From sequence record MZ501069: a stretch of 51,777 nucleotides of DNA, one strand, 5' to 3'. Made by a program: the position numbers and the translations under genes. The notes beneath the pieces are model-generated. The model did no database searches and had not been told where the DNA came from. It was given only the letters and a program-made list of their open reading frames with translations. Positions within the stretch are counted from its first letter, which is position 1; the number at the start of each line of letters is the position of its first letter. Shown piece by piece: positions 4,222 through 49,160 of this stretch. This DNA comes from Escherichia phage FritzSarasin.

Positions 4222-5337
4222 ATGAAGGCAAAACAAAGATTTGATAGCGCCAAAGTAAAGGCGCACTTTGATGATAACGGGTTTTTAGTTGATCGCCCTA
4301 TCGTGGCGCGAATTGGTTTACAAGTCTATCAGACTCCTTTCGGTGAGCGCAGAGAATTTCGTCCGGCGTCCGAAGTATTCAAGGCCGACTCACTCGCCAC
4401 CTTCGCAGGGAAGCCAGTCACGGTTGGTCACGTTACGGTAACTCCAGAAAACGCCGAAAAGGTTGTGGTTGGTTCTTGTGCTGGCGCTGGTGTGCCGAAC
4501 GGGATCGGCGTAGAGGTTCCGTTAAGCATTTACTCAAAACGAGCAATCGAAAGCGCGAAGAAGCGAGACACGGCTGAAATTTCAGTTGGTTACACATCGG
4601 TTGATATTGATAAACCAGGCTGGGGAAATAATAAAACTGGTGAGTACGTTTTCGATGAGGATGTTAGCGAAGACTGGAAACCTGACTCTCCTGATTGGGT
4701 TAAGTTTGATGCAATCCAGACTGAAATCAAGGTAAACCACATCGCTTTAGTTTTCCGAGGTCGAGCCGGTATTGCAAAATTAAACCTTGATAGCCAGCAA
4801 GATTTTCCGTATAGTGACGACGTTATTAACAACAAAGAGGATCAAATCATGACTGTAAAAATTAAACTGGATGGCGCTGTAGAATTTGATGTGCCGAAAG
4901 CAGTTGCGGATCACATTGAAACGCTTAAAGCTGATGCCAAAGCACAGAAAGAAAAGGCGGATGGCCTGGAAGCTGAGCGCGATGCGCTGCAAACCAAAGT
5001 AGATGGCATTCAGGATCAGATTGATGCCGCAGTCAAGAAGGCCAAAGAAGATGCCGAGCAATATGCTCAATTAGTGGCAGACGCCAAAGAGTTAGGCATC
5101 AAGTGCGACGGCCTGGATGCGAAAGCAATCAAGGTTGCATACATCAAAGAAGTTATGGGCAATGACGTTTCCGATAAAACTGATGCCTATATCGAAACAG
5201 CTTTCGACATCGCCAAAAACTCTGATAAAATGGCGGCGCAGCGTAAGAGCATTAAGGGTGACTCTTTCGCGAATGAAAAACAGGATGAAGCAGGTTCTAA
5301 GCTGAATCCTAACGCTCGTTTTGAGAAACTGAAATAA
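4222..5337 (+). CDS. putative scaffolding/prohead protein
   Basis: 371 aa; C-terminal half rich in K/E/A/D coiled-coil-like sequence; position between head morphogenesis and capsid genes. Confidence 0.45.
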   Translation: MKAKQRFDSAKVKAHFDDNGFLVDRPIVARIGLQVYQTPFGERREFRPASEVFKADSLATFAGKPVTVGHVTVTPENAEKVVVGSCAGAGVPNGIGVEVPLSIYSKRAIESAKKRDTAEISVGYTSVDIDKPGWGNNKTGEYVFDEDVSEDWKPDSPDWVKFDAIQTEIKVNHIALVFRGRAGIAKLNLDSQQDFPYSDDVINNKEDQIMTVKIKLDGAVEFDVPKAVADHIETLKADAKAQKEKADGLEAERDALQTKVDGIQDQIDAAVKKAKEDAEQYAQLVADAKELGIKCDGLDAKAIKVAYIKEVMGNDVSDKTDAYIETAFDIAKNSDKMAAQRKSIKGDSFANEKQDEAGSKLNPNARFEKLK

Positions 5338-28375: not shown

Positions 28376-30373
28376 ATGATTCCAAATATCGAAAAACAAA
28401 TATCAGCGTTAGGCGAGGCAGTAATAAAAAGCATCCAAGAGCGATTCACGGTTGGCAATATAGTGCCTTATCCTTATCAGTGCGTTGCGTATGCCGAGAT
28501 CGCAAAGCGCATGAAAAACTATGAGCATCCTTTCTTTGTTAAGGCTTCTGTGTCGGCTGGCAAAACATTGATGTTTGCGATGGTTGCTGCGCAATGCCGC
28601 AAAATGGGATTGAAAATGATGGTCCTTGCTCGCCAGGCTGAAATTGTTGATCAGGATTCGGAAGAGATCAGCAATCTTGGCGTGCCAAACTCAATCTATT
28701 GCGCCGGACTGAAAACAAAAAGCGCATACTTTCCGATCGTAGTCGGTTCTGAGGGCACTGTAGTAAACGGATTGTTTAAGTCGTTAGGTGATTATGTTCC
28801 GCACGTTATCGGTATTGATGAATGTCACCAGGTGGATTGGGAGGATCTCGCCGACGCGATAGAAAATAATGAATCTTACCAGCAGATGACCACTAAGAAG
28901 GATTTGCCTGTACTGATTGGAGAAGAACAGCAATTTGATTCCAATGGCGATCCAATGTTCGGAACAGGGCGCACACAGTACACCGTAATAATCATGGAAA
29001 TGATGCGCAGGTGTCGCGAGGCATACGGGCACGAATTGCGAATATTCGGTATGACTGGATCTGAGTTTCGCGGCGTGGTTCCAATACTGGTCGAAGATAA
29101 GAACAAAAAGGGATTCTGGCGTGAGCAGGTGACTAACATAGACACAAACTACTTAATCAAATTTGGTTCGGTAGTGCCAACAAATTTCGGCGACGTAGGC
29201 GACCTGGGGTATGACCTTTCAGAGTTCGAAGCCAGTAGCGAGGATGGCGTTTCAGACTTTGACGCTAAAACATTGCGCAAGATGGAAGAAAAAATCCATC
29301 AAGACGCAACAATGACACAGAAAATCATGGCTAAAGTCCATGAGATATGCAAAGACAGGAACGGAGTTTTAGTTACATGCGCAGGGGAAAGACATTGCAA
29401 GGAGGCCGCCGCCGCACTGCCGCAAGGCGTTGAATACAGGATCATAACTGGCAAAACTGGAGATAATCAGCGTAAAGAGTGGCTGAGGGAGGCATACGAG
29501 GGGAAAGTAAAATACATCTTCCAGGTACAGGCGCTTACCACTGGCGTTAACGTTCCGTTTTGGGATACTTCGGTAATACTGAGAAAGATAGGATCTCTAA
29601 CATTGCTTATCCAGCTTTTGGGGCGCGGTATGCGACTGCTTAAGCAATGGCACATTGAGCAGGGATTCAAGAAAAAAGACCATCTTGTATTGGATTTTGC
29701 CGGTACTATGGATGAGTTAGGGGATTTGTATTTCGATCCAATCCTTGAGCAAGCGCAATTCCAAAAGAGATTTACAAACGGGAAAGAGCCTAAGACTTGT
29801 CCGATATGTGGAACGCTAAACAGCTTTTACGCTCGCCGATGTATGCACGTAGACGATAACGGGAAGAGATGCGAGCATTTTTGGACTTACAGAATTTGCG
29901 AGGACCAGGTAGATCCGAGAACGAAAAAGATAATCAAGCGCGGTTGCGGAACAAAAAACGACGTAGTGGCGAGAGTTTGCCGTTGTTGCGATATTTCTCT
30001 TGTCGATCCTAACGAGAAGTTAAGCGGTAAGCACTACACCAAAAACGATTGGTGCAACGTTAAATCTTTCCGCGTTGATATGACGAAAAACCAGAAAGGA
30101 ATTGTTTTTTGCTATGAGCTTGAGGCCAACGGCGACACGTTCAAGGCATACGAAAGATTTTTCCCTGAGTCAGAAAGCAACATTTGCCGGACGATATGGA
30201 GAAAAATAGCATTGCAGCACATACCGGATCGCAAGATTGCTGGTATGGTGGCGAGCTATAGAAATGCGCGTAAAATAATGTCATACGCTCATCACATCAT
30301 GCCTCCTGTACGCGTAACGCATCGCAAAAACGGCAAAGGTGAGGATAACATTGCAAAACGGGAGTTTGTTTAA
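28376..30373 (+). CDS. SF2 DEAD/DEAH-box-like helicase
   Basis: 665 aa; Walker A ASVSAGKT, motif II IGIDECHQ (DExH); Cys-rich C-terminal region. Confidence 0.8.
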   Translation: MIPNIEKQISALGEAVIKSIQERFTVGNIVPYPYQCVAYAEIAKRMKNYEHPFFVKASVSAGKTLMFAMVAAQCRKMGLKMMVLARQAEIVDQDSEEISNLGVPNSIYCAGLKTKSAYFPIVVGSEGTVVNGLFKSLGDYVPHVIGIDECHQVDWEDLADAIENNESYQQMTTKKDLPVLIGEEQQFDSNGDPMFGTGRTQYTVIIMEMMRRCREAYGHELRIFGMTGSEFRGVVPILVEDKNKKGFWREQVTNIDTNYLIKFGSVVPTNFGDVGDLGYDLSEFEASSEDGVSDFDAKTLRKMEEKIHQDATMTQKIMAKVHEICKDRNGVLVTCAGERHCKEAAAALPQGVEYRIITGKTGDNQRKEWLREAYEGKVKYIFQVQALTTGVNVPFWDTSVILRKIGSLTLLIQLLGRGMRLLKQWHIEQGFKKKDHLVLDFAGTMDELGDLYFDPILEQAQFQKRFTNGKEPKTCPICGTLNSFYARRCMHVDDNGKRCEHFWTYRICEDQVDPRTKKIIKRGCGTKNDVVARVCRCCDISLVDPNEKLSGKHYTKNDWCNVKSFRVDMTKNQKGIVFCYELEANGDTFKAYERFFPESESNICRTIWRKIALQHIPDRKIAGMVASYRNARKIMSYAHHIMPPVRVTHRKNGKGEDNIAKREFV

Positions 30374-30792
30374 TGGCTATAACTGATAAAGGCGATTATC
30401 TTGAGTTTTACGAAAGGGATCCAACCGACACGAGAAGGGAAGTTAATCACCAGATAGATAGTTTTCAGTGGTTGACTTATGCTCATCCTTATTTGCTGGC
30501 GTGGCATACGGTAAACGAGAATGAGAAGTCTAAAGTAACGGCGATGATTGATCAGCAGTCCGGCTTGGTTAAGGGAGTAAGCGATTTCATCATCCTGATT
30601 GGTTTAAACGGAAAATACCCCTTTGCAGCGATTGAGATCAAACGAGTGAATAAATCAGGCAAGGGGAAAGCATCACCAGTCAGCGATGAACAAAAGGCTT
30701 TTTTGCGTCGCGTTCGCAGCTTAGGAGGATTCGCTGCGGTAGCCTACGGATTCAATCAGTTTAAGTTGGCTATTGAATACATGCTTAAATAG
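30373..30792 (+). CDS. VRR-NUC domain nuclease
   Basis: 139 aa; core GVSDFIILIGLNGKYPFAAIEIKR fits the D...E.K pattern; start overlaps helicase stop. Confidence 0.55.
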   Translation: MAITDKGDYLEFYERDPTDTRREVNHQIDSFQWLTYAHPYLLAWHTVNENEKSKVTAMIDQQSGLVKGVSDFIILIGLNGKYPFAAIEIKRVNKSGKGKASPVSDEQKAFLRRVRSLGGFAAVAYGFNQFKLAIEYMLK

Positions 30793-30808
30793 CACTTTTT
30801 GTTAAAAC
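30788..30808 (+). promoter_or_regulatory. conserved promoter-module motif copy (rightward)
   Basis: AATAGCACTTTTTGTTAAAAC, inverted repeat GGCGCGATGGATTGCGCC, CATAAT; contains stop TAG of the upstream gene; Dam ATG 85 nt downstream. Confidence 0.6.
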
Positions 30809-30872
30809 TGGCGCGATGGATTGCGCCATAATTCAATAACACGAGATGGCTTTTAATAGCGGAGAAATGAAA

Positions 30873-31598
30873 ATGGCTAAAGATATTTTAGATAAAGACA
30901 CCCATGACGCATTCGTTAGCTTTGAGCAGTTGGAGAGAGAAACGTTTATAGGGAATGCCCTTGCAACTGGAGGCCATTACCAGGCAGTAAAGCCAAATCA
31001 ATATTATAAGGTAAGCGGAAACCGATACGCTGGAAGCACTACGCCGGACGTTGTGCGCGATATGTGGAGTACGCCTCAAGAGATCGTGGAGTGGATGGAA
31101 TCAGAATTTGGTGAATACGATCTCGACGCGGCAGCAAGCCAGGAAAACGCAGTTTGCGAGAAGTTCTATAGCAAGGAGACAAACTGCTTAAAGCGTTGGT
31201 GGGGTAGCAACAAGCACGTATGGCTTAACCCGCCGTACAGCAACCCAACTCCATTTATCAAGAAAGCAATTGAGCAAATGGAGCACAACAACCAAATTGA
31301 TGTTTTGTTGCCAGCAGACAACTCTACAGCATGGTTTTATGAGGCGCAGAAAAACGCGGCTGAAATCATCTGGATCACTGGTGAGGTTTACGAAGAGGGT
31401 GGAGTAGAATACTCCCGCACCGGAAGAATCGCCTTTGTGTCTGGATTGACTGGCGAGCCTGTGCAGGGCAACAACAAGGGAAGCGTGATTTTTGTCATGC
31501 GCAAACTTAAAGAAGGCGAGGAGCAGAAAACGCGATACGTTAAGATCAGCGATATTTGCCCTTCTGTAACCGAACGTCGCGCACGCAAACGGAGCTAA
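30873..31598 (+). CDS. dam: DNA N6-adenine methyltransferase (Dam-like)
   Basis: About 241 aa from ATG 30873 (GGAG RBS); NPPY catalytic motif and DLDAAAS block. Confidence 0.75.
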   Translation: MAKDILDKDTHDAFVSFEQLERETFIGNALATGGHYQAVKPNQYYKVSGNRYAGSTTPDVVRDMWSTPQEIVEWMESEFGEYDLDAAASQENAVCEKFYSKETNCLKRWWGSNKHVWLNPPYSNPTPFIKKAIEQMEHNNQIDVLLPADNSTAWFYEAQKNAAEIIWITGEVYEEGGVEYSRTGRIAFVSGLTGEPVQGNNKGSVIFVMRKLKEGEEQKTRYVKISDICPSVTERRARKRS

Positions 31599-31602
31599 CA
31601 CG

Positions 31603-31860
31603 ATGGAAAAAGAGAGAAGCGTTTATTTAAATGAAACTGGCGAGTGGTTGTTATTTCGCGCTATGGTGTGCGATGCACTTGATAAAAACCCTAACGTGAA
31701 AAAGATGATTGATTGCGATCCGTGGGAATTTTCAAGCGCATTAGATATGAGCTTTGAGGAGACAAGAAAACTCCCGCTTGAAAAATGGCACGAACAAATC
31801 AGAAATGACATGCAAGAGTTTGTCGATTCGTGGAATTTTCAGCACGGAATGATCCACTAA
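31603..31860 (+). CDS. hypothetical protein
   Basis: 85 aa with GGAG RBS; stop TAA embedded in the next motif copy. Confidence 0.55.
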   Translation: MEKERSVYLNETGEWLLFRAMVCDALDKNPNVKKMIDCDPWEFSSALDMSFEETRKLPLEKWHEQIRNDMQEFVDSWNFQHGMIH

Positions 31861-31879: not shown

Positions 31880-31935
31880 GCCCGGCCTAGTGTCGGGCAT
31901 AATTATTTCAACGAAGCAAACATGAGGAAATAAAA

Positions 31936-32115
31936 ATGGTGGTATTCGATAAACGCGCTTTTAATCTTGCTCAAGAAGTAGCAAAAGGTTCAGTGGATGG
32001 CGGTTCAAAGGAAGGATTCCAGTTTGATTGGGAGATCGCAATGTTTTTACTGAAAGTTGCATACGGTCACGCACCAATTGAACAAGCGGAGGCATATTAT
32101 AAGCATGAAGGTTGA
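31936..32115 (+). CDS. hypothetical small protein (not in ORF track)
   Basis: 59-aa ORF with GAGGA RBS at the expected distance from the motif copy. Confidence 0.4.
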   Translation: MVVFDKRAFNLAQEVAKGSVDGGSKEGFQFDWEIAMFLLKVAYGHAPIEQAEAYYKHEG

Positions 32116-32347
32116 GCAAGGAAGAGATGCGGTATGGAATCACGCTAAAGAATGCGGTATTGCCGACGATATAAAGAAGATCGCGCAATACTTTGATATT
32201 GCAGATGTGAGCATAATTAGCGGCGACAAGATGACTTTCCTCAAGGAAAGGCCGCGAAAAATGGTAAGAGTTCCAGCAGTTCCAACAAAAATTGATTTCA
32301 AAGAGGCAATGGCTAAAATCCGAGAGCCTCGCAAATATTATAAATGA
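32105..32347 (+). CDS. hypothetical protein
   Basis: 80 aa from ATG 32105 (MKVEQGRD...); overlaps previous small ORF. Confidence 0.4.
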   Translation: MKVEQGRDAVWNHAKECGIADDIKKIAQYFDIADVSIISGDKMTFLKERPRKMVRVPAVPTKIDFKEAMAKIREPRKYYK

Positions 32348-32441
32348 GGATAGTTATCATGTGGCGCTTGTTTGTTCTACCGTTACCCGTTATCATCGCT
32401 GTTACAGTTATGTACCATATAGTGATGAGATAGGTAGCAGA

Positions 32442-33557
32442 ATGAAAAATGTAAAAATTACAGATGAGCAATTCAAGATCGAACGGGCGGCAGGTAAGAC
32501 ATATAAACAGATCGCTCAAGAGTACGGGATGAATGTGAGAAGCGTCGAGCGTCGCGCGGCGCGTCTTGCAAAGCAAGGACAGTTATCGACCATCGGAGCG
32601 CCTGGTTTTGGTGTTCATGGTGAGTCAGTAATGACTGACAAAGAAGGAAATATAATCCTCAAGTGGACCAAAACCAGCAAGGATAAAGAGCAATTAGAGG
32701 CACTGATGCGCGCAGCTATGGAGGCGTTTAGCGAGGAAGTGCCGCGATTAGATCCAGTTCCATTTCAGGAGCGTAATTATAATGAAACGCTTTCATTGTA
32801 TCCGATCTTTGACATGCACTTAGGAGCTATGGCCCATAAGCACGAATGCGGCGAAAATTGGGATACTGCGACGGCAGAGCGCGTTATGAATAACTTTATC
32901 GACTATGCTTTGATGTGCGCGCCGGACAGCGAAAAGGCTGTTATCCTGATTGGTGGCGATATGCTTCATAGCGATGGCCTGGAGGCTGTGACACCTGCAA
33001 GCGGTCACGTACTTGATCAAGATAGCCGATATGCAAAATTGGTTTACGTTGCAATCCGTGCAATGCGTCGCGCAATTAATAAAATGCTGTTAAAGCATAA
33101 ACATGTTGAGGTCCAGATCGTAGAGGGGAATCACGACCAATCAGGAATGATTTGGCTACGCGCAGCAATGGCGGCAGCATATGAGAACGAGCCGCGCGTT
33201 TACGTTGATGTTTCTCCTCGCGTTGTTCACCACACGCAATACGGAAAAACTTTCCTTGCGTACCATCACGGGCACACAGTGCGTAAACCGGAGGCTTTGC
33301 TAATGATGTGCGCGTCAGATTGGCGGGAGGACTTCGGAAACTCAAAAACGATGTATGCGCACGTAGGGCACTGGCATCACCAGACCGTGACAGAAACGTC
33401 GCTTGGCATCGTGGAGGTGCATAGCACCCTGGCGGCAAAAGACGCATACGCCGCGCGAGGTGGCTGGAGATCTCGACGCCGTGCGGCGGTTATCATTTAC
33501 GACAAAGAGCATGGAGAAGTCGGGCGATTTGTTCACTATCCAGAAATGATGAATTGA
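32442..33557 (+). CDS. calcineurin-like metallophosphoesterase with N-terminal HTH-like region
   Basis: 371 aa from ATG 32442; motifs DMHLG, GGDMLHSD, GNHD, HHGH, GHWHH match the metallophosphoesterase series (SbcD/Mre11-like); N-terminal KQIAQEYGMNVRSVERRAARL resembles an HTH. Confidence 0.6.
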   Translation: MKNVKITDEQFKIERAAGKTYKQIAQEYGMNVRSVERRAARLAKQGQLSTIGAPGFGVHGESVMTDKEGNIILKWTKTSKDKEQLEALMRAAMEAFSEEVPRLDPVPFQERNYNETLSLYPIFDMHLGAMAHKHECGENWDTATAERVMNNFIDYALMCAPDSEKAVILIGGDMLHSDGLEAVTPASGHVLDQDSRYAKLVYVAIRAMRRAINKMLLKHKHVEVQIVEGNHDQSGMIWLRAAMAAAYENEPRVYVDVSPRVVHHTQYGKTFLAYHHGHTVRKPEALLMMCASDWREDFGNSKTMYAHVGHWHHQTVTETSLGIVEVHSTLAAKDAYAARGGWRSRRRAAVIIYDKEHGEVGRFVHYPEMMN

Positions 33558-33604
33558 TGAATTTTTATTTAACTCAATGACAAATTAAATCAAAAACTTG
33601 CAAA

Positions 33605-33632
33605 GGGGCGGCGTTTGTCGCCTCTTTTTTTT
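33605..33632 (+). terminator. rho-independent terminator
   Basis: GGCGGCG-TTTGT-CGCCTC followed by TTTTTTTTG. Confidence 0.55.
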
Positions 33633-33704
33633 GTTTAAATTTTTATCATGTGCGTTTATTATGCGGTTAATATATTGACTTTTAATTAATATGGAGCATT
33701 AAAA

Positions 33705-33920
33705 ATGAAAGATTTTATTAACGCAGCTACCGCCGGATCTGGCGGTTCATCTATCGCAAGCGCCGCTACAGGTCAGTTAACCATTGCTATTGCCAGCTTT
33801 GTTTTAATGGCTGCATTCGGTGCGTGGGGCGCTTACCTTCGCTGGCGTGATAGTAAAAAATTCCACGAGGCGATCGAAAAAGGTGATATTCAAAAAGCTA
33901 TTGAAATCAGGGGCAAGTAA
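33705..33920 (+). CDS. putative holin
   Basis: 71 aa; one hydrophobic transmembrane stretch and charged C-terminus; directly precedes endolysin with overlapping TAATG. Confidence 0.6.
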
Positions 33921-34411
33921 TGAGCATCAAGAACAGGGTGGCGGCGGCGGCCTTTGGCGTTGCGGTTGCCTTGACTTCTCCACTTCTTGAAGAGATCGAA
34001 GGGGTAAGATACAAGCCATACAAAGATATTGCGGGAGTATGGACGGTTTGCGCAGGAATCACCGGACCCGATGTTATCCTGGGGAAAACGTACACTAAAA
34101 AAGAGTGTGATGATTTGTTGGCTAAGCATATCCAGGTTGCTAAAAAGGAAGTTGACAAGCAAGTTAAGGTTGACATTCCTGATAGTATGCGTGCAGCAAT
34201 GTACTCATTCACTTACAATGCAGGTGTGGGAGCTTTCAGAAATTCAACAATGCTGAAACTCATCAACCAGGGGAAATTAAAAGATGCTTGCGATCAGCTT
34301 TATCGTTGGACGTATTACCATAACCCCAAAACAGGAAAGCGCGAGAAGTCTAAAGGCTTACTTAACAGGCGCAAGGTCGAATACAAATATTGCACAATGG
34401 ATCTGAAATGA
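33920..34411 (+). CDS. endolysin (lysozyme-like, probable signal-anchor-release type)
   Basis: 163 aa; hydrophobic N-terminal segment [17 protein letters not shown] followed by a lysozyme-like catalytic region; lysis-cassette position. Confidence 0.8.
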
Positions 34412-34803
34412 TGAAGAAATTTTTACTTACACCAATCGCAATGGCGGTGATCTTGTCTGGATGTTCAAGCGTTACGCCACTGACCGGATTAATCGGCAGT
34501 AAGCCGGAAATCACAGCACAGGCTGGCGCGGAGAACGTGAGGCAGACAGTTGGCATTACAGCAAAGCAGGACGCCAGCACAAAACAGGAAACCACAATAA
34601 AGGAATCTGCGGTTGACAAGGTGGACACGTCCAGCAAGAAGGATTTCACAACATCAACCATTCAGGCCAATACCATCAAGGCAGACAAAATTCAGATCGT
34701 GCAGGGTAATAACGGCAGATGGTACGATCCAATAATCATATGCGTGGTTGTGTTAATTGTGCTGATTTGTCTTTACTGGAGAGAAAAGAAAAAGGAGGCT
34801 TAA
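34408..34803 (+). CDS. unimolecular spanin
   Basis: ATG 34408 overlaps endolysin stop; N-terminal lipoprotein signal with lipobox ILSGC and C-terminal transmembrane helix [16 protein letters not shown]. Confidence 0.75.
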
Positions 34804-35239: not shown

Positions 35240-35635
35240 TCATGTGATATTGAATTTACGGCGCAGTGCTTCAAGATCTTGTCTATTAGCTTTTGCCTGG
35301 AACAATTCATCATCGCCCATCTCCCCTATTCTAGCCATATCCCTGATCCAGTCGTTGCGCATACCATCCAGGCTATACAATTCGAATCCGAAAGGCCGCT
35401 TTGACGATCCTTTGGACCAGTATTTACCGCAGACCCCATCTATATAGCCAGCCGTCATCATTCTTGCGCAAAATTCCTTAGATGCAAGGCTGGCGAACAT
35501 TCGCGGCGTAAGTCCGGCGGCCCGTGCGAGCCGCTCACATTCTCTATGATGATAGATAAATTTGGCTATGTGCTGCCTGTTAAACCAGTCGTATGACTCA
35601 CACCATTTATACAGATCAAGCAAAAACATAATCAT
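35240..35635 (-). CDS. hypothetical protein, coupled to upstream P-loop ATPase
   Basis: About 131 aa; start overlaps stop of the ATPase gene (ATGA); no recognisable motif. Confidence 0.5.
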   Translation of the reverse strand: MIMFLLDLYKWCESYDWFNRQHIAKFIYHHRECERLARAAGLTPRMFASLASKEFCARMMTAGYIDGVCGKYWSKGSSKRPFGFELYSLDGMRNDWIRDMARIGEMGDDELFQAKANRQDLEALRRKFNIT

Positions 35636-37212
35636 CCCAGCAGTATTGGATTGACAAAAATAACACCATTAATCACACAAACATAATTTCTTTCTTCCAG
35701 CATTGGCAGCAAGTGCCCTTCTATCCTCTTCATTACGCCAGCTTGACCAACGAAAGGTTTTACCTTTCTCGCTGATTCGTACAGGGCGCGAATATTCAGA
35801 ATCCCTTTATTAGCCTTGCCGTGTCTAGTGATCAATTCAATCAATTTGCCCATTTCAGCATCATCACCAGCATAACCAGAAGCATTGGCGGCGCTAATGT
35901 ATGTTTTGCTCAATTCCTGAAACATGATCAGCGCCTCTTGCATTGTTTCCACGTCGATCTCTTTCGACTTCTGCGGGTATCCAGCAGGATTAAACCAGTT
36001 GCGGATAACATGCAGGACGGAAGCAAGCCTGATCACCTGTTTATCCATTTTACCCAGCGCACCGCGTAACATTGTATGAGAATACTTTCCGCCGTCTGCA
36101 AGATGCGGTTCCATATCCTGGCGAGCAATGTTGAGCACTCGCATAGCTGAACGGCTTATTTTCAGCGATATATTTGATTCGCTCATGATGTTATGCACCA
36201 ATTGATAATATTGGGCCTTCAATTCAGGATCCACCGCCTCATAGGTAGAATCACCATTTTCATCAATGAATGAGCGACGGCCTAAGAATGATTCCTCACG
36301 GACCAACAAAAAGCGCTCACTCACACCGATACCGCGCGATCCAGCGTCCATGATTCCGCTTATCGTTTCATCCTGGGCTATAACGCTCATACATCCAAGT
36401 GCGCGAAAACTCATGTTATTGTCAGCATTAGCACGGGCAATTGATACGTGACCATTATCCCACGCCTTAAGCACTAGCTCGCTGTTAGTCTTCCTTTCGC
36501 TATTGGCATAGGTCAAGCCTAACAGGCTGTTAATACTTGTTGCTTCGTCAGATATTACGGCAAAGTTACCTTGCTTGTTGTTGATTTTCGCCAAGCCTTC
36601 TGGAGTGGTATCTGAAACAGGGAAAGTTATATCACACATCTTTTCCAGCTTCTCCTCCAGATCCTCTTTTTCCTGGTATAGAGATTCCATATCAGCGCCT
36701 GATCTTTCGCTTTTCATCTCCTTTGCAAGACCTGCCAACTTTGCCTGTATTTTCTTTCTTTCCTTGCGGCGTTGCTCGTTGATCTTCTCAACTTCCGCAA
36801 TCATCGGAGCAATAGCCATACTGTTGATCGCAGATTTACCAGTTGACGGCGGCTGGCTTGTAACTACGTAAAGCGCAGTCGGCTGATCGGTTCCGTGATA
36901 GTCAACTGTAAAGCGCCCAAGCATAGCGGCAGAAATGCAGCCGATAAAGTGCATGTAAGCCGATGATTCAGGGAATTGAACTGATCGCGCAATGCTGCGT
37001 GATAACTTGCCGACAACATCAATATCATTACCAAGAGAAATTACGGGGTAGCGATCGTGACCGCTATTTACATCCTTTACGTCGCCCCAAAAGCTGGACG
37101 ACTGGCGATAGCCGTTAGCCTGAATTGATACGCGAACTGGCGAAAGGTTCTGGCTTTCAGCCATAGCGATTATTTGCTGTGGAGTTAATTTGTTCGTTTC
37201 TAATGAAAACAT
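35632..37212 (-). CDS. P-loop NTPase of unknown function (DUF3987-like, unverified)
   Basis: 526 aa; Walker A-like PPSTGKS and Walker B-like AVISDEA; charged coiled-coil segment; long C-terminal domain with no recognisable motif. Confidence 0.6.
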   Translation of the reverse strand: MFSLETNKLTPQQIIAMAESQNLSPVRVSIQANGYRQSSSFWGDVKDVNSGHDRYPVISLGNDIDVVGKLSRSIARSVQFPESSAYMHFIGCISAAMLGRFTVDYHGTDQPTALYVVTSQPPSTGKSAINSMAIAPMIAEVEKINEQRRKERKKIQAKLAGLAKEMKSERSGADMESLYQEKEDLEEKLEKMCDITFPVSDTTPEGLAKINNKQGNFAVISDEATSINSLLGLTYANSERKTNSELVLKAWDNGHVSIARANADNNMSFRALGCMSVIAQDETISGIMDAGSRGIGVSERFLLVREESFLGRRSFIDENGDSTYEAVDPELKAQYYQLVHNIMSESNISLKISRSAMRVLNIARQDMEPHLADGGKYSHTMLRGALGKMDKQVIRLASVLHVIRNWFNPAGYPQKSKEIDVETMQEALIMFQELSKTYISAANASGYAGDDAEMGKLIELITRHGKANKGILNIRALYESARKVKPFVGQAGVMKRIEGHLLPMLEERNYVCVINGVIFVNPILLG

Positions 37213-48911: not shown

Positions 48912-49160
48912 ATGGTTTTTAACGCATTGAAACGACTGTTTAAGCCGGAATACCGGATCGTATTTTGCCGCGACTGTTCTACTTATCATGTGCAGCGACG
49001 CAGCTTAGGCGGCAATTGGCACTATGTTACAGACGACTTTTTCGGCATCATTGCCACTGAATTTAAGTATTACAGTGATGCTTATATGTACGTCAAGAAT
49101 CGCCACCGCTTACGCAAGTGTCGTTTTTCCGTGCTGATTCACGTTAATGATTGTTACTGA
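48912..49160 (+). CDS. hypothetical protein
   Basis: 82 aa ORF. Confidence 0.45.
   Translation: MVFNALKRLFKPEYRIVFCRDCSTYHVQRRSLGGNWHYVTDDFFGIIATEFKYYSDAYMYVKNRHRLRKCRFSVLIHVNDCY

What the first reader, a model, noticed from the sequence alone, without database searches (positions are those of the whole stretch)
32442..33557. Metallophosphoesterase fused to an N-terminal HTH-like region, next to the lysis cassette
The protein carries the full metallophosphoesterase motif series (DMHLG, GDMLHSD, GNHD, HHGH, GHWHH), closer to the SbcD/Mre11 nuclease pattern than to Ser/Thr phosphatases. There is no SbcC-like ATPase partner in the window. An N-terminal segment (KQIAQEYGMNVRSVERRAARL) looks like a helix-turn-helix, an unusual combination. 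A cluster of short repeats (TTATCATGTGG / TTATCATCGCTG) lies just upstream.
Basis: partly seen in the sequence, partly recalled or inferred. Interest (0 to 1): 0.5.

Follow-up and report, generated by a model that had tools for sequence, protein, structure and literature searches.

The report
Phage DNA-binding metallophosphoesterase, SbcD-like nuclease
This gene of a T1-like coliphage encodes a DNA-binding helix-turn-helix domain fused to an Mre11/SbcD-type metal-dependent phosphodiesterase; the family is catalogued in thousands of phage genomes as a putative "DNA repair exonuclease", so the gene is real but ordinary, and nobody has tested what it does.

Summary

It is not unusual. The window is almost certainly Escherichia phage FritzSarasin (Bas04, Drexlerviridae). 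The protein matches PHROG 704 "DNA repair exonuclease" over its full length, with relatives in about 2,040 phage records. The T1 orthologue is already annotated as SbcD-like, and the exonuclease-holin-endolysin-spanin order is published for 508 of 522 Drexlerviridae.

A strong terminator separates the gene from the holin gene. It therefore closes the helicase / VRR-NUC / Dam DNA-metabolism unit and is not part of the lysis operon.

The "repeats" upstream are not regulatory. They are codons of a conserved hydrophobic 24-29-codon mini-ORF that most records leave unannotated.

Best reading: an HTH-tethered, SbcC-independent DNA nuclease used for DNA-end processing and nucleotide salvage. This is inferred and has not been shown. 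Interest is low to moderate.

The parts
32442..33557 (+). HTH-metallophosphoesterase gene, 371 aa (bas04_0039-type; PHROG 704)
   Evidence: ORF and motifs. PHROG 704 at E 1.3e-148 over residues 5-370. The exact protein is QXV79396.1 of Escherichia phage FritzSarasin.
32463..32573 (+). N-terminal helix-turn-helix, residues 8-44 (three helices)
   Evidence: AF2 helices at 8-16, 21-27 and 32-44. Sub-threshold Pfam HTH hits at residues 16-46. HTH hits across the family. N-terminal profile against PDB HTH regulators.
32613..32735 (+). Beta-hairpin (possible 'wing', with conserved G69 and W75) plus a long helix, residues 58-98, linking the HTH to the catalytic core
   Evidence: AF2 strands 58-65 and 71-78, helix 79-98. 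G69 is conserved in 91% and W75 in 93% of 150 representatives.
32787..33536 (+). Compact binuclear metallophosphoesterase core, residues about 116-365, with motifs I-V; no capping domain follows
32344..32433 (+). Conserved hydrophobic mini-ORF. It is 29 aa from the ATG at 32344, which overlaps the upstream stop as ATGA, or 24 aa from the ATG at 32359, which has a GAGGA Shine-Dalgarno.
   Evidence: Present with conserved hydrophobicity and a '..MY..VM' end in nearly all Drexlerviridae loci sampled, including T1. Synonymous codon differences make up 35% in this frame against 16% and 7% in the other two frames. The 29-aa form is annotated in a few records.
32105..32347 (+). 80-aa ORF of unknown function immediately upstream; conserved within Drexlerviridae only
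   Evidence: Annotated in tiwna. tblastn hits in Drexlerviridae loci. No Pfam hit. No homologue next to the MPE gene in other lineages.
31936..32115 (+). 59-aa ORF of unknown function, the first gene after the upstream terminator-like hairpin
33602..33637 (+). Intrinsic terminator (11-bp stem, 6 G-C pairs, T-run) that closes the transcription unit ending with the MPE gene
   Evidence: A rho-independent terminator is annotated at the same place in T1.
33634..33662 (+). Sigma-70-like promoter candidate (TTTAAA-17-TATTAT) for the lysis cassette
   Evidence: This is a consensus match only.
33705..34803 (+). Lysis cassette: holin 33705-33920, lysozyme 33920-34411, spanin to 34803. A neighbour, not part of the same operon.
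   Evidence: Phage_lysozyme at E 7.7e-39.
28376..31860 (+). Upstream DNA-metabolism genes on the same strand: SF2 helicase 28376-30373, VRR-NUC nuclease 30373-30792, Dam methylase 30846-31598, and an 85-aa ORF 31603-31860. A terminator-like hairpin follows at 31880-31898.
   Evidence: Pfam; tiwna annotation; hairpin.

Best explanation
The gene encodes a two-part enzyme. An N-terminal HTH, probably a winged helix, binds DNA. It is joined by a hairpin and helix linker to a compact binuclear (Mn2+-type) metallophosphoesterase whose active site is of the Mre11/SbcD nuclease kind.

The protein lacks the capping domain of Mre11/SbcD and has no Rad50/SbcC ATPase. I infer that the HTH supplies the DNA grip that those parts provide in the classical enzymes. 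On this reading the protein is a self-sufficient DNA phosphodiesterase, acting as an endo- or exonuclease on ends, single-stranded regions, hairpins or branched molecules.

It is transcribed as the last gene of the phage's DNA-metabolism unit (SF2 helicase, VRR-NUC nuclease, Dam methylase) and is closed off from the lysis genes by a terminator. Its most likely job is DNA processing during phage replication and recombination, together with breakdown of DNA to nucleotides for reuse. This would parallel the dual role of T4 gp46/47.

Shown here: the domain architecture, the strict conservation of the catalytic residues, the fold, the operon boundaries and the gene neighbourhoods. Inferred: the substrate (DNA), the role of the HTH and the biological role.
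For: 1. Active enzyme. All metal ligands are invariant across relatives sharing 30-54% identity with the window protein.

3. DNA-binding module. There is family-wide HTH evidence. Some members carry two HTHs in tandem.

4. Neighbours are DNA or nucleotide enzymes in unrelated phages:
- SF2 helicase, VRR-NUC and Dam in this window.
- Exonuclease, endonuclease and polynucleotide kinase (PNK) in the T7-like phage ECBP5.
- PNK and dNMP kinase in Yersinia phage 281, and frequently in Drexlerviridae (PMC13164509).
- DNA ligase and a Holliday-junction resolvase in Campylobacter Fletchervirus.
- A DnaB helicase directly downstream in mEp010-like prophages.
- DNA polymerase A and a MazG-like gene in L097; ThyX in an N4-like roseophage; primase in Jedunavirus.

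5. Precedents. A stand-alone mycobacteriophage MPE degrades DNA in vitro and host DNA in vivo (PMC12287305). P. putida MPE is a cap-less ssDNA endonuclease encoded beside an SF2 helicase.
Against: - No biochemical or genetic data exist for any member of this family; literature searches found none.
- Generic phosphodiesterases (MJ0936, Vps29, YfcE, LpxH, Rv0805) score nearly as well in the fold searches.
- The family profile aligns to the E. coli SbcD sequence only at motif III, with probability 2.5%.
- Neither Pfam Metallophos nor any NCBIfam nuclease model reaches its cut-off.
- The spacing between motifs III and IV (45 residues) resembles small phosphodiesterases, not Mre11.
- An HTH can also mean gene regulation.
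- The recurrent position beside lysis cassettes in about 10 of 18 lineages is not explained by a DNA-metabolism role. At best it reflects a location at the boundary between early and late gene modules.
Confidence: 0.55

Rival explanations
1. It is a phosphodiesterase for a small or non-DNA substrate: cyclic (oligo)nucleotide immune signals, Ap4A-type dinucleotides, or 2',3'-cyclic phosphate RNA ends healed together with polynucleotide kinase. The HTH would have only an accessory or autoregulatory role.
Confidence: 0.15
2. It is a replication factor and not a degradative nuclease. For example, it could be a helicase-associated scaffold or a DP1/B-subunit-like 3'-5' editing exonuclease working with the replicative helicase or polymerase.
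Against: No OB-fold domain of the DP1/B-subunit type is seen between the N-terminus and the MPE core; there is only one hairpin and a helix. Drexlerviridae encode no DnaB and no polymerase. The gene sits in non-replication contexts in many phages.
Confidence: 0.12
3. It is mainly a transcription regulator of late or lysis genes (a Q-like or sigma-region-4-like factor). The MPE domain would act as a sensory or accessory module.
For: The HTH resembles sigma-70 region 4 and LuxR/GerE domains. The gene lies at the early/late boundary, directly upstream of the lysis cassette in Drexlerviridae, upstream of terS/terL in Dhillonvirus and Jedunavirus, and beside lysis genes in about 10 of 18 lineages.
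Against: Every catalytic residue is under strict conservation. Homologues without an HTH exist, such as the 317-aa Campylobacter phage protein and representatives of about 310 aa, so the enzyme is the core of the family. In alphaproteobacterial phages the gene follows the lysis cassette and faces convergent genes, so it has nothing downstream to activate. The type of HTH drifts between lineages.
Confidence: 0.07
4. It is a protein Ser/Thr phosphatase like lambda phosphatase (NinI), which also lies upstream of the late and lysis region in lambdoid phages.
For: It belongs to the same superfamily and has a comparable map position (lambda map from established knowledge).
Confidence: 0.03

Closest known systems
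SbcD / Mre11 nucleases (E. coli SbcD, archaeal Mre11, T4 gp47)
   Different: No capping domain: the protein ends about 59 residues after motif V. No SbcC/Rad50/gp46 partner is encoded. It has an N-terminal HTH plus hairpin and helix. The spacing between motifs III and IV is short. The family profile aligns to the SbcD sequence only at motif III (probability 2.5%), and no NCBIfam SbcD hit was found.
Pseudomonas putida MPE / PdeM, the Lhr-associated Mn2+-dependent ssDNA endonuclease (PMC7826289)
   Same: A stand-alone compact MPE without a capping domain or SMC partner, encoded with an SF2 helicase. The two histidines essential for DNA cleavage (DxxH and N-H) have conserved equivalents here, H176 and H231. 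Its 3'-PO4 products would make a neighbouring 3'-phosphatase (PNK) useful; this last point is inference.
Mycobacteriophage A10ZJ24 Gp48 (Cluster A MPE; PMC12287305)
   Same: A phage-encoded stand-alone MPE with all five motifs, expressed early. The purified protein is a phosphodiesterase and degrades linear, plasmid and genomic DNA. It breaks down host DNA in vivo.
   Different: The motif I Asp is at residue 10, so there is no N-terminal HTH region. No Mycobacterium phages appear among the leading host groups of the 2,040 tblastn hits. No sequence relationship was shown here.
PHROG 704 'DNA repair exonuclease', including T1 ORF16 (CPTT1_064) and Jerseyvirus 'oxidoreductase / wHTH domain-containing protein'
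   Same: The same protein family over its full length (E 1.3e-148; T1 orthologue 55% identical). The position before the lysis cassette is the same and is a persistent feature of 508 of 522 Drexlerviridae (PMC13164509).
   Different: Nothing: this is the family the gene belongs to. The family name is a prediction; no member has been characterised.
Archaeal PolD small subunit DP1 and eukaryotic polymerase B-subunits
   Different: No OB-fold domain and no polymerase partner. Unlike the eukaryotic B-subunits, the active site here is intact.

Membership tests
Calcineurin-like binuclear metallophosphoesterase superfamily | Motifs I-V (DxH, GDxx[DH], GNH[DE], H, GHxH) that supply the seven metal ligands | tested here: met
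   D124, H126, D173, N230, H276 (or H278), H310 and H312 are present and invariant or nearly so in 101 relatives.
Calcineurin-like binuclear metallophosphoesterase superfamily | Alpha/beta-sandwich MPE fold | tested here: met
Calcineurin-like binuclear metallophosphoesterase superfamily | Pfam PF00149 Metallophos at its gathering score | tested here: not met
   16.5 bits against a cut-off of 21.5 for the window protein. Of 101 relatives, 22 hit at E <= 0.01. The family is too divergent for the model, which says nothing against the fold.
PHROG 704 (phage 'DNA repair exonuclease') | Full-length match to the family profile | tested here: met
   E 1.3e-148, residues 5-370 against profile positions 3-389 of 390.
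SbcD / Mre11 nuclease family | Catalytic phosphodiesterase domain with GDxxH and GNH[DE] histidines | tested here: met
   G172-D173-M-L-H176 and G229-N230-H231-D232 are conserved. These are the best fold matches.
SbcD / Mre11 nuclease family | Capping domain C-terminal to the phosphodiesterase domain | tested here: not met
SbcD / Mre11 nuclease family | Partner SMC-like ATPase (SbcC/Rad50/gp46) encoded with it | tested here: not met
   None in the window or in the near-identical phage tiwna, as far as its annotation was read. The nearby 526-aa ATPase is DUF3987. No such neighbour was found in 18 other lineages examined.
SbcD / Mre11 nuclease family | Sequence-level membership (profile similarity to SbcD) | tested here: inconclusive
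   hhalign of the family profile against the single E. coli SbcD sequence aligns 16 columns at motif III, probability 2.5%. No NCBIfam SbcD hit was found. However, the T1 record cites HHpred 99% to SbcD 4LTY. A profile-profile search against PDB70 could not be run.
SbcD / Mre11 nuclease family | Mn2+-dependent DNA exo/endonuclease activity; homodimer | not testable with these tools
   Needs biochemistry or multimer modelling.
PdeM / P. putida MPE clade (TIGR04123) | Match to the NCBIfam equivalog model | tested here: not met
   16.8 bits against a cut-off of 150; only residues 210-238 match.
PPP Ser/Thr protein phosphatases (lambda phosphatase type) | Motif II GDxVDRG and motif III GNHE; PPP fold as the closest match | tested here: not met
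Helix-turn-helix DNA-binding domains (LuxR/sigma-4/Lrp/LysR-like) | Three-helix unit with a profile match to known HTH domains | tested here: met
   AF2 helices at 8-16, 21-27 and 32-44. Family members hit HTH_1, HTH_8, Sigma70_r4_2 (1.5e-9) and GerE (2.4e-8). The N-terminal profile hits LrpA at 2.5e-4, RhlR 7.7e-4, GerE 1.4e-3 and CnrH 1.9e-3. The window protein alone stays below the Pfam cut-offs.
Helix-turn-helix DNA-binding domains (LuxR/sigma-4/Lrp/LysR-like) | Actual DNA binding | not testable with these tools
   Needs a gel-shift assay or ChIP.
PolD DP1 / polymerase B-subunit family | OB-fold domain between the N-terminal domain and the MPE domain; a polymerase catalytic partner | tested here: not met
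   Only a two-strand hairpin and one helix lie between the HTH and the core. The phage encodes no DNA polymerase.
Known anti-phage defence proteins (PADLOC) | Match to any model | tested here: not met
   No hit at E <= 0.01.

The most novel reading that the evidence does not exclude
The family could be a self-contained, Rad50-independent version of the Mre11/SbcD machine, in which an HTH replaces both the capping domain and the ATPase clamp. In T1-like phages it would be the enzyme that breaks down the host chromosome and feeds the neighbouring PNK and dNMP-kinase salvage genes. That would make it a candidate for the genetically defined but unassigned T1 host-DNA-degradation function, 'gene 2.5', whose loss raises transduction frequency (this is my recollection of the 1981 T1 literature and was not checked here). 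The translationally coupled hydrophobic mini-protein and the recurrent placement beside lysis cassettes could further mean that its activity is tied to the membrane or to the timing of the lysis programme.
Probability: 0.15. Interest if true: 0.55.

Novelty: new member of a known kind. Interest (0 to 1): 0.3.

Why it matters
As an observation it adds little. The protein, its two domains and its place before the lysis cassette are already in public annotation and in a 2026 paper.

Its value lies in scale. The same architecture occurs in about 4% of deposited phage genomes (2,040 of 50,697 records). These include Drexlerviridae, Guernseyvirinae, Dhillonvirus, some T7-like and N4-like phages, marine Vibrio and roseobacter phages, and E. 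coli prophages. No member has ever been assayed.

If it proves to be an SbcC-independent Mre11-type nuclease, it would show a minimal way to build such an enzyme. It could also explain host-DNA breakdown and nucleotide salvage in T1-like phages, which bears on their transduction behaviour and on their use in therapy.

Two practical points follow:
- The RefSeq start codon of the orthologues (398-aa and 421-aa forms) is probably wrong.
- A conserved small membrane-type ORF in front of the gene is usually left unannotated.

Tried and rejected
1. Repeats as regulatory sites. TTATCATGTG has three exact copies (32354, 33643, 48983), but with one mismatch allowed it is not enriched. The local repeat is a single 8-mer pair. 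Alignment of relatives showed that the strings are codons of a mini-ORF. I rejected the repeat-cluster reading.

2. A conserved protein partner. All-against-all BLAST of the ORFs flanking the gene in 16 diverse loci found no small partner shared across lineages. Only endolysins, HNH endonucleases, DnaB (within prophages) and the PNK module recurred.

3. SbcC. The 526-aa neighbour is DUF3987, not an SMC ATPase.

4. Sequence-only searches of the PDB. The single protein or the full-length profile gave nothing for the catalytic part. Only the fold searches worked.

5. hhalign of the family profile against one SbcD sequence was uninformative.

7. Literature. No paper on the function of this family was found. 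The T1 gene 2.5 literature could not be retrieved.

8. Defence or anti-defence role. No PADLOC hit was found.

9. A leader RNA structure in 32340-32460 is only weakly better than shuffles (z -2.3, 5 of 200). I did not pursue it.
Full report
**What the window is.** The region around the finding is 98.8% identical to Escherichia phage tiwna (Drexlerviridae, Tempevirinae, Warwickvirus) and similar to more than 100 other T1-like phages. The exact protein sequence is on record as QXV79396.1, "hypothetical protein bas04_0039" of Escherichia phage FritzSarasin, on a contig of 51,777 bp. That is exactly the length of the window. The window is therefore almost certainly phage Bas04 of the BASEL collection.

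**Checking the observation.** The ATG at 32442 opens a 371-codon reading frame that ends at 33557.

I aligned two sets of relatives: 28 that are 38-85% identical to the query (A1) and 101 cluster representatives that are only 30-54% identical (A2). In the second set D124, H126, D173, T184, N230, H231, H276, G277, G309 and H312 are invariant. H176, D178, D232, H278 and H310 are at least 90% conserved. This is an enzyme under strict selection and not a chance set of motifs.

PHROG 704, "DNA repair exonuclease", matches residues 5-370 at E 1.3e-148. Pfam and NCBIfam have no model that reaches its cut-off.

**The N-terminal domain.** For the window protein alone the HTH signal is weak: Sigma70_r4_2 at E 0.0017 and HTH_28 at 0.0095, both below the gathering scores. 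At family level it is solid.
- Among the 101 relatives, 20 hit LysR-type HTH_1, 12 hit Fis-type HTH_8 and 10 hit Sigma70_r4_2 (best E 1.5e-9). GerE is hit at 2.4e-8.
- A profile of the first 100 residues of 33 diverse members finds 107 PDB chains at E <= 1. Nearly all of the 60 listed are HTH regulators or other HTH-containing proteins, after a designed repeat protein ranked first: LrpA 2.5e-4, RhlR 7.7e-4, GerE 1.4e-3, the sigma factor CnrH 1.9e-3 and FixJ 2.3e-3.
- The AlphaFold2 model (pLDDT 79) has helices at residues 8-16, 21-27 and 32-44. A beta-hairpin follows at 58-65 and 71-78 and carries the conserved G69 and W75. Then come a long helix (79-98) and a linker to the catalytic core, which starts at residue 116.
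- Almost all of 150 representatives have 115-170 residues before motif I. A few long members have two HTHs in tandem. A few short ones, including a 317-aa Campylobacter phage protein, have none.

The fusion is thus the normal state of the family, and the enzyme domain is its constant part.

Foldseek puts M. jannaschii Mre11 first at E 4.6e-7. Small generic phosphodiesterases are nearly as close, however.

Two sequence features point to a nuclease. In Pseudomonas putida MPE, His81 (three residues after the motif II Asp78) and His113 (next to the motif III Asn112) are essential for DNA cleavage but dispensable for hydrolysis of a generic diester (PMC7826289). The corresponding residues here, H176 and H231, are 97% and 100% conserved.

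Other features set the protein apart from SbcD/Mre11.
- There is no capping domain; the chain ends about 59 residues after motif V.
- The spacing between motifs III and IV is short.
- The family profile aligns to the E. coli SbcD sequence only over motif III (probability 2.5%). The curated T1 record does cite HHpred 99% to SbcD 4LTY.
- A family-specific conserved loop, V-T184-P-x-S-G-H-x-L191-D192-x-D194-x-R196, lies between motifs II and III. It is modelled with low confidence, and its role is unknown.

**No partner ATPase.** The 526-aa protein at 35632-37212 (-) is DUF3987 (E 5.9e-44). All other large proteins of the near-identical phage tiwna are accounted for as terminase, portal, tape measure, tail proteins, SF2 helicase and so on. 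No SbcC/Rad50-like gene was seen beside the homologue in any of 18 other lineages examined.

**Operon structure.** The gene lies on the + strand after the following genes:
- an SF2 helicase (28376-30373)
- a VRR-NUC nuclease (30373-30792)
- a Dam methylase (30846-31598)
- three small ORFs

A terminator-like hairpin lies at 31880-31898 within this run of genes. A strong intrinsic terminator (33602-33627 plus a T-run) follows the gene. A promoter-like site (33634-33662) then precedes the holin gene. T1 has an annotated terminator at the same place. The gene therefore closes a DNA-metabolism transcription unit, and its closeness to the lysis cassette is positional.

That position is nevertheless conserved. 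[quoted passage not shown] Where extra genes are inserted after the exonuclease, they are most often polynucleotide kinase and dNMP kinase (PMC13164509).

**Distribution and neighbourhoods.** tblastn finds the protein in 2,040 of 50,697 phage records. An exhaustive HMMER search finds 4,601 clusters at 50% identity. I examined 18 lineages.

In about 10 of them a lysis gene lies within five genes:
- Drexlerviridae
- Dhillonvirus JL1
- Yersinia phage 281
- Rhizobium phage Y5A
- two Vibrio phage groups
- Rhodobacter phage RcMaeve
- Sulfitobacter phage NYA-2014a
- two metagenomic phages

The other recurrent neighbours are DNA and nucleotide enzymes:
- T7-type exonuclease and endonuclease plus PNK in ECBP5
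- PNK and dNMP kinase in Yersinia phage 281
- DNA ligase and a Holliday-junction resolvase in Campylobacter Fletchervirus
- DNA polymerase A and a MazG-like gene
- ThyX in an N4-like roseophage
- dUTPase and dCMP deaminase in Gorganvirus
- primase, with terS/terL following, in Jedunavirus
- a DnaB-type helicase directly downstream in mEp010-like E. coli prophages, where the gene sits between the replication initiator and the helicase

No small partner protein is shared across lineages. The simplest reading is that the gene is the terminal member of the DNA-metabolism module, and that this module commonly abuts the lysis or packaging genes.

**How it most likely works.** The architecture, the conservation and the contexts are shown. 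The rest is inference. I conclude that the protein is a DNA phosphodiesterase in which the HTH provides the hold on DNA that the capping domain and the Rad50/SbcC clamp provide in the classical enzymes.

Two characterised stand-alone MPEs show that this is feasible. P. putida MPE is a cap-less, monomeric, Mn2+-dependent ssDNA endonuclease encoded beside an SF2 helicase. Mycobacteriophage A10ZJ24 Gp48 degrades DNA in vitro and host DNA in vivo.

The link with PNK and dNMP kinase, and the textbook precedent of T4 gp46/47, suggest DNA-end processing together with breakdown of DNA to reusable nucleotides. T4 gp46/47 is needed both for recombination-dependent replication and for converting host DNA to nucleotides.

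My confidence that the protein is an active phosphoesterase is about 0.9. My confidence that DNA is the substrate is about 0.55-0.6. The precise role remains open.

The rivals are a non-DNA substrate, a replication factor, a late-gene regulator and a protein phosphatase. They are weighed in their own section of this report.

**The upstream 'repeats'.** Aligning the 94-nt gap before the gene in 20 relatives showed that it is not intergenic. It holds a small ORF, MRIVIMWRLFVLPLPVIIAVTVMYHIVMR.
- The first ATG (32344) overlaps the stop of the upstream 80-aa ORF as ATGA.
- A second ATG (32359) has a GAGGA Shine-Dalgarno eight bases upstream.
- The stop codon lies eight bases before the ATG of the MPE gene.
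- A hydrophobic peptide of 21-31 residues (GRAVY 1.3-2.3), usually ending in '..MY..(I/V)M', sits at the same place in nearly all Drexlerviridae loci sampled. In T1 it is MKLYFAVVLTPLISFSVMYFIIM.
- Synonymous changes make up 35% of codon differences in this frame, against 16% and 7% in the other two frames.
- The 7% frame is the one RefSeq uses to extend the MPE gene to GTG 32361, so that extension is probably an error.
- The 29-aa form is annotated in a few phage records, such as tunus and vB_EcoS-G3B1, but not in T1 or tiwna.

**Verdict.** The finding is real and correctly read at the domain level, but it is an ordinary, already catalogued phage gene. It is a member of PHROG 704, and this exact sequence is in GenBank. 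What remains open is its function, which nobody has tested. I rate interest at 0.3.

Noticed in passing
window 32344-32433 (+); also L098 (T1) 4862-4933: A conserved, mostly unannotated hydrophobic mini-ORF of 23-31 codons (single transmembrane-like helix) lies directly upstream of the metallophosphoesterase gene and is apparently translationally coupled to it. It occurs throughout Drexlerviridae. Its function is unknown.
   Followed up: yes
window 32361-32441 (+): RefSeq and GenBank orthologues of 398 aa (start at GTG 32361) and 421 aa (start at TTG 32292) carry N-terminal extensions. These overlap the mini-ORF in the frame with the fewest synonymous changes (7%). The 371-aa start at 32442 is the one conserved across genera, so the extensions are probably mis-annotations.
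   Followed up: yes
L098 6150-6632 (T1), L003 6028-6537 (Vibrio phage), L011 8070-8660 (mEp010), L096 7148-7852, L005 7042-8034: Homing-type endonuclease genes sit immediately beside the metallophosphoesterase gene in unrelated phages: mutually related HNH genes, a GIY-YIG gene and a T5orf172/DUF4379 gene. This suggests that the conserved gene is a recurrent homing target.
   Followed up: partly
L008 5220-6278 (Yersinia phage 281), L100 5087-6237 (ECBP5); Drexlerviridae per PMC13164509: A polynucleotide kinase/3'-phosphatase gene, with or without a dNMP kinase gene, follows the metallophosphoesterase gene in three different phage groups.
   Followed up: partly
L005, L011-L014 (E. coli prophages / phage mEp010): In these temperate phages the homologue (65% identical) always lies between a variable replication initiator (HTH_36 or Lin1244_N type) and a DnaB-type helicase. 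That is the slot where a helicase loader would be expected.
   Followed up: partly
about 10 of 18 lineages examined (e.g. L007, L009, L095, L097, L099, L103, L104): The gene lies within five genes of an endolysin or holin in distantly related phages, sometimes before and sometimes after the lysis cassette. This is more often than a random position would give. It is not explained beyond a likely module-boundary effect.
   Followed up: partly
window 33643-33652 and 48983-48992: Two further exact copies of TTATCATGTG exist, followed by C in both. One lies in the promoter-like region before the holin gene. Three exact copies of a 10-mer is more than the roughly 0.1 expected for a random 10-mer, but this was a post-hoc choice, and the one-mismatch count is not enriched.
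   Followed up: partly
window 32340-32460 (+): The RNA across the mini-ORF can fold into a hairpin reaching the start region of the MPE gene. Minimum free energy is -28.4 kcal/mol, z -2.3, and 5 of 200 shuffles fold as well. The signal is weak.
   Followed up: no
phage collection hits: About 20 records named 'Campylobacter phage' (e.g. C4 and A16a, about 50 kb) are T1-like genomes 77-85% identical to this coliphage at the protein level. A 'Streptococcus phage MBBL140' protein and an 'Acinetobacter baumannii' protein are likewise T1-like or Jersey-like. These are probably host mislabels or contaminants.
   Followed up: no
protein residues 183-196 (window 32988-33029): A family-specific, almost invariant loop, V-T-P-x-S-G-H-x-L-D-x-D-x-R, lies between motifs II and III. 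It has no counterpart noted in Mre11/SbcD and is modelled with low confidence. It may be a substrate-binding element.
   Followed up: no
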